Positions 42,508 through 43,637 of a stretch of 64,000 nt of DNA are shown here, one piece after another. The stretch is from Schizosaccharomyces osmophilus (Eukaryota), in assembly GCF_027921745.1 (NCBI RefSeq), contig NC_079238.1, forward strand, positions 5,084,001 through 5,148,000. Direction: 5' to 3'. Made by a program: the position numbers and the translations under genes. The notes below the pieces were generated by a model, which was not told the DNA's origin, searched no databases, and worked only from the letters and a program-made list of their open reading frames with translations. Position 1 is the stretch's first letter; the number at the start of each line of letters is the position of its first letter.

Positions 42508-43637
42508 TTAAACTTCGGCGCTTTGCGCAGCAAGAGGCTGAAGTTCGATTCCTTCGTTCTGAGATACTTGCTCTCCTCGATTGGTTCCTTTTTAATAGGT
42601 TAATAACGCCTCGTGATAGGAAGCATTTACCAAGTGTACATACCGAACATATGATCTAACACATTTCCTATGCCGTTTCCTAACACATTTATGCCGTTTC
42701 CCATATCGACGACTACTAATCTAAGTCGTTCACGCGCATTTGCATTCACTAGAAGAGTTAGAATATTTCGCGGGTGTATGACATACTCGTCAAATAAAGA
42801 AACAAGACAAAGTTAACAAAACAAACAGCATAGAAAAAATTGTTGTTTATCTTTTCGAATCCTGTGAACTTTTTTGCAGCATAATACGCAGTGAAACCGA
42901 GGACATCGAGAAAACACACACATAATACTGAGATACACATAGCTGACAATACGTTTTTGGTTAATCTTCCAGCTTGCGTGAGCCCTTTTTTGGCCTGCTT
43001 GAACCATTCTTTAGGCATTTGAGTCATTGCTAATAGTTAGTAAGTCGCTCAAAGTGAAAGATATCGTTGTTGAATTACCAAGCAGAAACAATACAAAGGC
43101 TGCAACAAAGCCACCAAAAAGCCCCCAAAGGGTTTTTGCATTCACAGAAGCCTTGAAACCAAAAAATAACACAAGAAGAATAGCATAGGCTACAATATAC
43201 CCAATAGTTATAGGCAACAAGATGCCTGCTAAGACTTTCTGGCAAAGCACCACATCCCAACCAGAATTATTAGCGGAATTCTGAGCGGATCCATCAGCCA
43301 TTTCTAAATCGATAAACTTGTTTGAAGCTAATGGATGTATTAGTAACTGTTCTTTCGTTTTGTGAAAGGATAGAGGTTTTCGCCCTGTTTGTTGACACTT
43401 ATCAACAAGGTTATTAGTTTCAAACCCAACAAATAAATAAACAAGCATGATTCTTCCATCACGAGCCGTTCCAACAAGAACACAAAGAATTAACCTCTCT
43501 ATTTTAATTCAACAAATCTTACCTGTATACGGAGGAGGCGTACCATCAAAAGGAGACGACTGACTAACTACCTTTTCATCATTGAGCGTTTTGGAAGAGT
43601 CATCAGAATCTGAAATAGGAGTATATTTGTTTTTCAT
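42508..43637 (-). CDS. wtf: wtf-family meiotic driver (poison/antidote), 5 exons: 43637-43523, 43327-43079, 43029-42787, 42748-42644, 42587-42508; long isoform 263 aa
   Basis: All four GT..AG introns are phase 1 and splice to a stop-free 792-nt CDS; MKNKYTP start, PPPY at the end of exon 1, FIDLEM at the start of exon 2, TM exons, GNGI/GNV repeats in exon 4, AEV* end; 5S-flanked. Confidence 0.88.
42656..42701 (-). repeat. Imperfect 21/24-bp tandem repeat in wtf exon 4 (GNGINVL-GNGIGNVL)
   Basis: ctaacacattt(cct)atgccgtttc occurs twice. Confidence 0.8.

What the first reader, a model, noticed from the sequence alone, without database searches (positions are those of the whole stretch)
42508..43637. 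Hidden intact five-exon wtf gene with two-isoform poison/antidote architecture
The ORF track shows only fragments. Splicing four canonical introns (195, 49, 38 and 56 nt) gives a 263-aa protein. Exon 1 supplies the only PY motif (PPPY), the Rsp5/Nedd4-ligase-binding signal that marks Wtf antidotes. An in-frame ATG at 43301 in exon 2 (FIDLE-M) would give a 216-aa PY-less protein, the expected poison. Exons 2-4 are symmetric (249, 243 and 105 nt, all phase 1), so exons could be swapped between paralogs by gene conversion without a frameshift.
Basis: partly seen in the sequence, partly recalled or inferred. Interest (0 to 1): 0.8.

Follow-up and report, generated by a model that had tools for sequence, protein, structure and literature searches.

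The report
Known fission-yeast spore-killer gene copy
This is an already catalogued copy of the wtf spore-killer gene family in a fission yeast, encoding a long protein that is likely an antidote and a short form that would be the poison; whether this copy kills spores is untested, and the finding is ordinary.

Summary
Splicing the four GT-AG introns (195, 49, 38, 56 nt) gives 263 aa, with one PPPY in exon 1 and an in-frame ATG at 43301 giving 216 aa. The product is letter-for-letter the public record WBW70850.1, 'wtf meiotic driver', of Schizosaccharomyces osmophilus. It matches the published gene SOMG_02329 (wtf19; syntenic with 'wtf20' of strain CBS 15792), already listed as a predicted driver in a 5S rDNA-wag-wtf-5S rDNA unit. 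The PY-ubiquitin antidote mechanism is published for the family. Poison activity is open. Intron 1 has only a sub-threshold FLEX variant. The closest paralog in the published identity table (83.8%) is the one S. osmophilus poison found non-toxic, and it shares the first 53 residues of the short form. The gene is a mosaic of paralog segments, but breakpoints also fall inside exons, and conversion between homologous genes does not need symmetric exons. Verdict: already known, low interest.

The parts
43523..43637 (-). wtf exon 1 (115 nt): antidote start ATG at 43637, antidote-specific N-terminal tail with lysines K2, K4, K16, K22
   Evidence: K2 and K22 invariant, K16 nearly invariant in 69 aligned members
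43527..43538 (-). Codons of the single PY motif, PPPY (residues 34-37)
   Evidence: PPPY in 28 of 28 S. osmophilus paralogs examined
43328..43522 (-). Intron 1 (195 nt); expected site of the poison promoter
   Evidence: role inferred from PMC9562144 section 6
43386..43396 (-). FLEX-like site GTCAACAAACA, one mismatch to the Mei4 consensus, inside the 9-bp core; 85 nt before the poison ATG
   Evidence: same motif at the same offset (241 nt) listed as a sub-threshold hit, p=2.5e-5, for the syntenic gene
43437..43447 (+). Second FLEX-like site (two mismatches), antisense to the gene
   Evidence: weak, may be chance
43446..43448 (-). In-frame ATG inside intron 1 with an open frame into exon 2; lies upstream of the FLEX-like site, so probably not on a short transcript
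   Evidence: use untested
43079..43327 (-). wtf exon 2 (249 nt): K42, FIDLE-M, predicted membrane helices 1 and 2
   Evidence: 99-100% identical to three paralogs
43299..43301 (-). In-frame ATG (M48), predicted start of the 216-aa short form
   Evidence: M48 present in at least 90% of 69 aligned members
43030..43078 (-). Intron 2 (49 nt)
42787..43029 (-). wtf exon 3 (243 nt): basic loop, predicted membrane helices 3 and 4
42749..42786 (-). Intron 3 (38 nt)
   Evidence: skipped exactly by one paralog-like contig of run X1
42644..42748 (-). wtf exon 4 (105 nt), with two units of the 7-residue GNG repeat at 42657-42701
   Evidence: 42 nt of repeat listed for the syntenic gene; a contig with one more 21-nt unit seen
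42588..42643 (-). Intron 4 (56 nt)
   Evidence: donor position supported by a loose end of one paralog-like contig of run X3
42508..42587 (-). wtf exon 5 (80 nt with TAA stop)
   Evidence: conserved family C-terminus
41676..41794 (-). 5S rRNA gene downstream of wtf, same strand
   Evidence: Rfam RF00001, 107 bits
44671..45508 (+). wag (wtf-associated gene), divergent from wtf, spliced, 260 aa; SOMG_02330
   Evidence: wag11 listed beside the syntenic wtf
45839..45957 (-). 5S rRNA gene upstream of the wag-wtf unit; direct repeat of the downstream copy (97.7% over 131 nt)

Best explanation
This is the already annotated S. osmophilus wtf gene SOMG_02329, an intact five-exon member of the wtf poison-antidote family, whose 263-aa product is likely an antidote and whose 216-aa form is probably toxic but likely made at low level, which would make it a weak or latent meiotic driver. 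Shown here: gene structure, family membership, one PY motif, all five N-tail lysines upstream of M48, and the 5S-wag-wtf-5S context. Inferred from other family members: the long protein binds a Rsp5/Nedd4-family ligase (Pub1/Pub3 type) through PPPY, is ubiquitinated on N-tail lysines, co-assembles with the short protein and carries it from the trans-Golgi to endosome and vacuole. The short protein, made from a meiotic transcript starting in intron 1, lacks the PY motif and N-tail lysines, reaches all spores and would kill those without the gene. Inferred from sequence: weak poison expression, because the Mei4 site is degenerate.
For: Identity to WBW70850.1. Same length, strand and neighbours as SOMG_02329, with a constant offset for it and the flanking genes. 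77 relatives found, all labelled Schizosaccharomyces. Pfam WTF is the family matched by most members (15 of 69, best E 1.4e-4). PPxY and K2, K22, K42 are invariant in 69 of 69. Four hydrophobic helices follow a disordered N-tail (low-confidence model, pLDDT 52). Published: single PY motif in all intact non-pombe antidotes, and four S. octosporus antidotes turned toxic by deubiquitinase tethering. 4 of 5 non-pombe poisons tested were toxic and rescued by their own antidote. The second helix type (LWGLFGG) is shared with toxic S. octosporus Wtf25. Weak expression: one mismatch in the FLEX core; FLEX is essential for S. pombe wtf4 poison; drive tracks short-transcript level; 14 of 14 wag-linked intact S. 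octosporus genes had at most 6 short reads, against 22-33 for the three proven drivers.
Against: No experiment on this gene appeared in the papers seen. The closest paralog in the published table (CBS 15792 wtf19, 83.8%) is non-toxic and ER-like in localization, shares residues 48-100, and differs at only 12 of 143 visible short-form residues (counted by eye). The toxic wtf41 is only 68.8% identical. The protein itself has no Pfam WTF hit at E<=1. No RNA from this locus was found; introns 1-2 and the short transcript have no read support here. Against weak expression: 14 of 28 S. octosporus genes without a confident FLEX still had short transcripts, and the same variant motif sits in 18 of 31 intact S. 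osmophilus genes.
Confidence: 0.5

Rival explanations
1. Antidote-only in effect: the short form is non-toxic, like its nearest tested paralog, or is never transcribed. The gene would then act only as a suppressor of near-identical wtf poisons elsewhere in the genome.
For: Residues 48-100, including predicted helix 1, are identical to the non-toxic CBS 15792 Wtf19, and this is the segment where Wtf19 differs most from toxic Wtf41 in the part I could see. FLEX site is sub-threshold. A paralog with a 96% identical short form exists on the same chromosome (P0002) and could be a target.
Against: Wtf19 has its own chimeric second half of exon 2 and an extra proline in the first loop, which could explain its defect without implicating this gene. 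ATG and frame are intact. Most tested poisons are toxic (4 of 5). C-terminal parts of the published alignment were cut from view.
Confidence: 0.3
2. A fully active driver: the GTCAACA variant is a working forkhead/Mei4 site in this species and the short form is abundant and toxic.
For: The variant lies 85 nt upstream of the poison ATG; sites within one mismatch are expected about 0.05 times per intron of this size. It recurs in 18 of 31 intact S. osmophilus genes, including toxic wtf41 and not non-toxic wtf19. That GTCAACA fits a forkhead core is recalled, from no call.
Against: Recurrence may reflect homogenisation by gene conversion. Only 3 of the 7 S. octosporus genes picked for high short-transcript levels drove clearly, 2 more weakly. 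Wag-linked genes show few short reads.
Confidence: 0.16
3. The splice model is wrong or the gene is a decaying copy that makes mostly truncated products.
For: One low-depth contig (3.7) of a related sequence uses a donor 17 nt upstream in exon 3, which would shift the frame and end at 202 aa. One contig appears to run unspliced into intron 3 (42771-42970). The syntenic S. octosporus gene wtf24 is a pseudogene.
Against: Canonical signals at all four introns, exact match to the annotation, conservation across all junctions, identical N-terminal two thirds in a second strain, exact intron-3 skip in a contig.
Confidence: 0.04

Closest known systems
S. osmophilus wtf19 / SOMG_02329 (WBW70850.1, XP_056035093.1); syntenic with wtf20 of strain CBS 15792 in De Carvalho et al. 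2022
   Same: Identical 263-aa protein, same 1130-nt span, strand and neighbours; listed as predicted DRIVER with wag11 and 5S rDNA on both sides.
   Different: Nothing found. Naming trap: the 'S. osmophilus wtf19' tested in print uses CBS 15792 numbering and is a different locus (SOMG_02492).
S. osmophilus Wtf19 (CBS 15792 numbering), tested non-toxic poison
   Same: 83.8% identity overall; identical first 53 residues of the short form; near-identical exon 3.
   Different: 12 changes in 143 visible residues, 8 of them in the second half of exon 2; no FLEX-like hit listed; C-terminal part not seen.
S. osmophilus Wtf41 (CBS 15792 numbering), tested toxic poison with self-rescuing antidote
   Same: Same architecture, PY motif, same FLEX variant, similar exon 3.
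   Different: 68.8% identity; different exon-2 helix 1 and helix 2 types.
S. octosporus wtf25 (SOCG_04480), proven meiotic driver
   Same: Five exons, single PPPY, FIDLE-M start, 56-59% identity, related exon-2 type.
   Different: Has a perfect FLEX site and the highest short-transcript count (33); no wag or 5S flank.
S. pombe wtf drivers (wtf4, cw9)
   Same: Two isoforms from alternative transcription starts; PY-dependent ubiquitination of the antidote.
   Different: Under about 20% identity, often six exons, two or three PY motifs, LTR-associated rather than 5S/wag-associated, perfect FLEX site.

Membership tests
wtf gene family (non-pombe branch) | Sequence homology to annotated Wtf proteins | tested here: met
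   Identical to one record; 77 relatives at E<=4.5e-35 by profile
wtf gene family (non-pombe branch) | Match to Pfam WTF (PF03303) | tested here: inconclusive
   No hit for this protein at E<=1; top family among relatives, 15 of 69, best E 1.4e-4. Homology to S. pombe rests on published PSI-BLAST
wtf gene family (non-pombe branch) | Five-exon structure with long intron 1 and open reading frame | tested here: met
wtf gene family (non-pombe branch) | Multi-pass membrane protein with hydrophilic N-tail | tested here: met
   Four hydrophobic stretches; helices 64-96, 102-125, 145-177, 184-203 in a low-confidence model
wtf gene family (non-pombe branch) | 7-residue GNG repeat in exon 4 | tested here: met
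   Two units
wtf gene family (non-pombe branch) | Association with dispersed 5S rDNA and often a wag gene | tested here: met
   5S at 41676 and 45839, wag at 44671
Wtf antidote | PY motif and lysines in the antidote-specific tail | tested here: met
   PPPY 34-37; K2, K4, K16, K22, K42
Wtf antidote | Neutralises its own poison by ubiquitin-dependent sorting | not testable with these tools
   Shown for other members only
Active wtf driver | [quoted passage not shown] | tested here: met
   ATG 43301
Active wtf driver | Confident FLEX (Mei4) motif in intron 1 | tested here: not met
   Best site has one mismatch in the core; published p=2.5e-5 against a cut-off of 3e-6. Required in S. pombe wtf4, not strictly in S. 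octosporus
Active wtf driver | Short transcript starting in intron 1 during meiosis | tested here: inconclusive
   No RNA holder listed; the three runs laid are contigs that do not cover intron 1
Active wtf driver | Short protein is toxic; heterozygote shows drive | not testable with these tools
   No test of this gene seen in the papers read; nearest tested paralog non-toxic

The most novel reading that the evidence does not exclude
The 5S-wag-wtf-5S cassette is a two-gene functional module. Wag, so far uncharacterised, is a membrane protein with its own invariant PY motif (LP[R/K]Y in 29 of 30 hits) and acts as a Rsp5/Nedd4 client or adaptor that helps sort or silence Wtf poisons, which is why it travels with wtf genes. 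Alongside, this gene and its non-toxic near-twin form a natural pair that could map what makes a Wtf protein toxic.
Probability: 0.1. Interest if true: 0.55.

Novelty: already known. Interest (0 to 1): 0.12.

Why it matters
As found, it matters little: the gene, its splice model, its predicted two isoforms, the PY motif, the 5S/wag context and gene conversion in the family are all in print or in databases. The remaining value is practical. The gene is an untested copy that differs from a non-toxic paralog by about a dozen visible residues, so it is a convenient probe for the unsolved question of what makes a Wtf protein toxic. Its FLEX variant, shared by 18 of 31 intact S. osmophilus genes, is the obvious test of whether this species expresses poisons at all. 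The conserved PY motif in the neighbouring Wag family is a small new lead.

Tried and rejected
Whole genome: none held for this window, so paralogs were compared as proteins only, with no intron comparison. RNA: no RNA holder listed; three low-share contig runs from one study were laid twice. They carry 85-99% alike sequences, not demonstrably this locus, and leave exons 1-2 and introns 1-2 uncovered, which says nothing on expression. Pfam on single exons 1-3: no family. Other wtf copies in the window: none by tblastn at E<0.03. Wag as a diverged Wtf: rejected, profile-profile probability 0.4%, no WTF match in 27 Wag proteins, and a full-library profile search gave only 9 hits, of which the 6 whose sequence I saw are Wag-like. 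ORF 40346-41203 as a Wtf or Wag relative: not supported, 9.4% and 0.5%, only short motif matches. Structure: model too weak for a fold search (pLDDT 52, pTM 0.25), so none was run. No complex prediction was run. The protein of SOMG_02492 could not be identified among my 29 S. osmophilus proteins. Table S20 of PMC10085805 (strain-to-strain wtf identities) was not in the readable part of the supplement, and the C-terminal part of the PMC9562144 alignment was cut; both could bear on the paralog comparison. Earlier scan notes: none for this genome.

Full report
1. Observation. The minus strand of 42508-43637 holds five exons of 115, 249, 243, 105 and 80 nt, separated by GT-AG introns of 195, 49, 38 and 56 nt, all phase 1. 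The joined 792 nt read 263 aa plus stop, with one PPPY (34-37) and an in-frame ATG at 43301 giving 216 aa. Each intron has a branch-type site close to its 3' end, and retaining any one truncates the protein.

2. Identity. A search with exon 2 alone returned 11 proteins among 241 candidates, all labelled Schizosaccharomyces; the top hit is 263 aa. It is identical to the spliced model and is WBW70850.1 / XP_056035093.1, 'wtf meiotic driver [Schizosaccharomyces osmophilus]'. The gene table of PMC10085805 lists SOMG_02329, wtf19, minus strand, 1130 nt, 'syntenic with wtf20 in CBS 15792'. It and the flanking genes rga6, def1, SOMG_02328, SOMG_02330, ferric reductase and cmt1 all map onto the window's ORFs with one constant offset. 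PMC9562144 lists the syntenic gene as 1130 nt, predicted DRIVER, with wag11 and 5S rDNA on both sides. So the gene is not hidden.

3. Context. Rfam finds 5S rRNA genes at 41676-41794 and 45839-45957, both on the wtf strand. A divergent spliced gene at 44671-45508 is SOMG_02330, one of 30 relatives found in three species. This is the published 5S-wag-wtf-5S unit, proposed to spread by recombination between 5S copies. The syntenic S. octosporus gene, wtf24, is a pseudogene.

4. Family features. A profile search gave 77 relatives. I aligned 69 of the 85 family proteins in hand, leaving out 16 partial or short records, which biases towards full N-termini. P34, P35, Y37, K2, K22 and K42 are invariant, and M48 is kept in at least 90%. 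Among 28 S. osmophilus paralogs, 28 have a single PPPY, 23 have FIDLE-M, 1 has FIDLE-I and 4 have a variant motif. All five N-tail lysines lie before M48. Hydropathy and a low-confidence model (pLDDT 52) give a disordered tail and four helices. Pfam WTF does not hit this protein but is the family matched by most relatives, 15 of 69.

5. Mechanism, inferred from other members. In PMC10721834, PY motifs in the antidote tail bind Pub1/Pub3 (Rsp5/Nedd4 family). Ubiquitination sends the antidote, with bound poison, from the trans-Golgi to the endosome. All intact non-pombe antidotes have one PY motif, and four S. octosporus antidotes became toxic on deubiquitinase tethering. In PMC9562144, 4 of 5 non-pombe poisons killed budding yeast and were partly rescued by their own antidote. 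The long form here has every sequence element this needs, so antidote function is likely. None of it was tested on this gene in what I read.

6. Is the poison expressed? S. pombe wtf4 needs a FLEX (Mei4) site in intron 1. Here the best site is GTCAACAAACA at 43396-43386, with one mismatch in the core, 85 nt before the ATG. It is below the published confidence cut-off, and none of 31 intact S. osmophilus genes has a confident site. The same variant is listed for 18 of those 31 (my count; the table's strand label is opposite to what the window shows), so it is either a species variant or a homogenised relic. In S. octosporus, drive tracks short-transcript level, and 3 of 7 deleted genes drove clearly. 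The 14 wag-linked intact genes there had 0-6 short reads against 22-33 for the proven drivers (my count), though most of them form a separate clade. On the other side, 14 of 28 genes without a confident site still made short transcripts.

7. Is the poison toxic? The tested, non-toxic 'S. osmophilus wtf19' is a different locus (SOMG_02492), but it is the closest paralog in the published table, at 83.8%, against 68.8% for toxic wtf41. In the visible alignment it shares residues 48-100 exactly and differs at 12 of 143 short-form residues, counted by eye. It shows ER-like localization. Eight of the differences are in the second half of exon 2, where this gene instead resembles toxic S. octosporus Wtf25. 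Toxicity is therefore open; I put it a little above even.

8. Exon swapping. The gene is a mosaic. Exon 2 is 99-100% identical to three paralogs, while exon 3 is 99% identical to a paralog that shares only 19-33% in exon 2, and exon 5 is identical to two others. Among 25 core paralogs (29 minus the 4 most distant), distances correlate better within exons (rho 0.73-0.85) than across introns (0.27-0.63). The weakest linkage lies inside exon 3, at residues 138-143 (rho 0.15-0.17), a short region with an indel, so this is approximate. Wtf19 switches type in mid-exon 2. Gene conversion in this family is published, with breakpoints dispersed in S. pombe group 1 genes. Symmetric phase is not needed for homologous exchange; it only permits in-frame loss or skipping of an exon (180, 182 and 228 aa). 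A paralog with a 96% identical short form and one more repeat unit (P0002) might cross-neutralise this gene; untested.

9. RNA. No listed holder is on record as RNA. Contigs from three low-share runs of one study carry related sequences. One skips intron 3 exactly (13 differences over 142 nt), one leaves exon 4 at the intron-4 donor into exon-5-like sequence, and that same contig uses a frameshifting donor 17 nt upstream in exon 3. This is weak support for two junctions in the family and none for this locus or the short transcript.

10. Side lead. Wag proteins carry LP[R/K]Y in 29 of 30 hits, the exception being a partial record, and LPxY in 4 of 4 more distant ones viewed. They show no detectable homology to Wtf. 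One search for 'wtf-associated gene', 'wag genes', DUF999 or ftm listed only the De Carvalho paper as relevant among 15 shown, and a second for osmophilus, wtf and meiotic drive listed 9 of 17 papers. I saw no function proposed for Wag, but I did not read every mention.

11. Papers seen. PMC9562144: abstract, sections 5, 6 (first part), 7, 9, 11, 12, 16, 32, passages, supplement 42 parts 1-2 and searched rows, supplement 11 part 2 (cut). PMC10085805: section 8, passages, searched supplement rows; its preprint 10.1101/2022.12.06.519325: passages. PMC10721834, 10.1101/2024.08.27.609905, PMC13160552 and PMC9762604: passages only. Preprint supplements were not seen.

12. Verdict. Observation confirmed, interpretation partly supported, novelty none: an annotated member of a well-studied family. 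Weak or latent driver 0.50, antidote-only in effect 0.30, strong driver 0.16, wrong model 0.04. Interest 0.12.

Noticed in passing
window 44671-45508 (+): Wag protein and its family carry an invariant PY motif (LP[R/K]Y, 29 of 30 hits) followed by D[L/M]EKG; no detectable homology to Wtf.
   Followed up: partly
window 40346-41203 (+): SOMG_02328, a 285-aa membrane protein matching DUF999 (E 3.6e-7), just beyond the downstream 5S gene. It has three PY motifs and a C-terminal EEIELQ stretch like that of Wtf proteins; profile comparison gave only 9.4%.
   Followed up: partly
window 52861-53596 and 55925-56043: Two decayed 5S-like remnants (74-82% identity to the intact copies) and a third intact 5S gene, with no wtf found nearby. 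S. octosporus wtf25 (SOCG_04480) is numbered between the orthologues of cmt1 and the malic enzyme that bound this stretch.
   Followed up: no
window 53957-55327 (-): SOMG_02333, a hypothetical protein of about 450 aa between the 5S remnants and the third 5S gene; no Pfam family; orthologue listed only in S. cryophilus.
   Followed up: no
window 43446-43448 (-): In-frame ATG in intron 1 with an open frame into exon 2; would add 49 residues before M48 if a transcript started further upstream.
   Followed up: partly
window 42803 (-): A cryptic GT donor 17 nt upstream of the intron-3 donor is used by one low-depth contig of a related sequence; it would shift the frame.
   Followed up: partly
P0016 (paralog): Shares exons 2-3 with this gene (94-100%) but has an unrelated exon 4 (20% identity), a clean swap at the exon 3/4 boundary.
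   Followed up: partly
window 15180-15254 (+), 39014-39084 (-): Two tRNA genes by Rfam.
   Followed up: no
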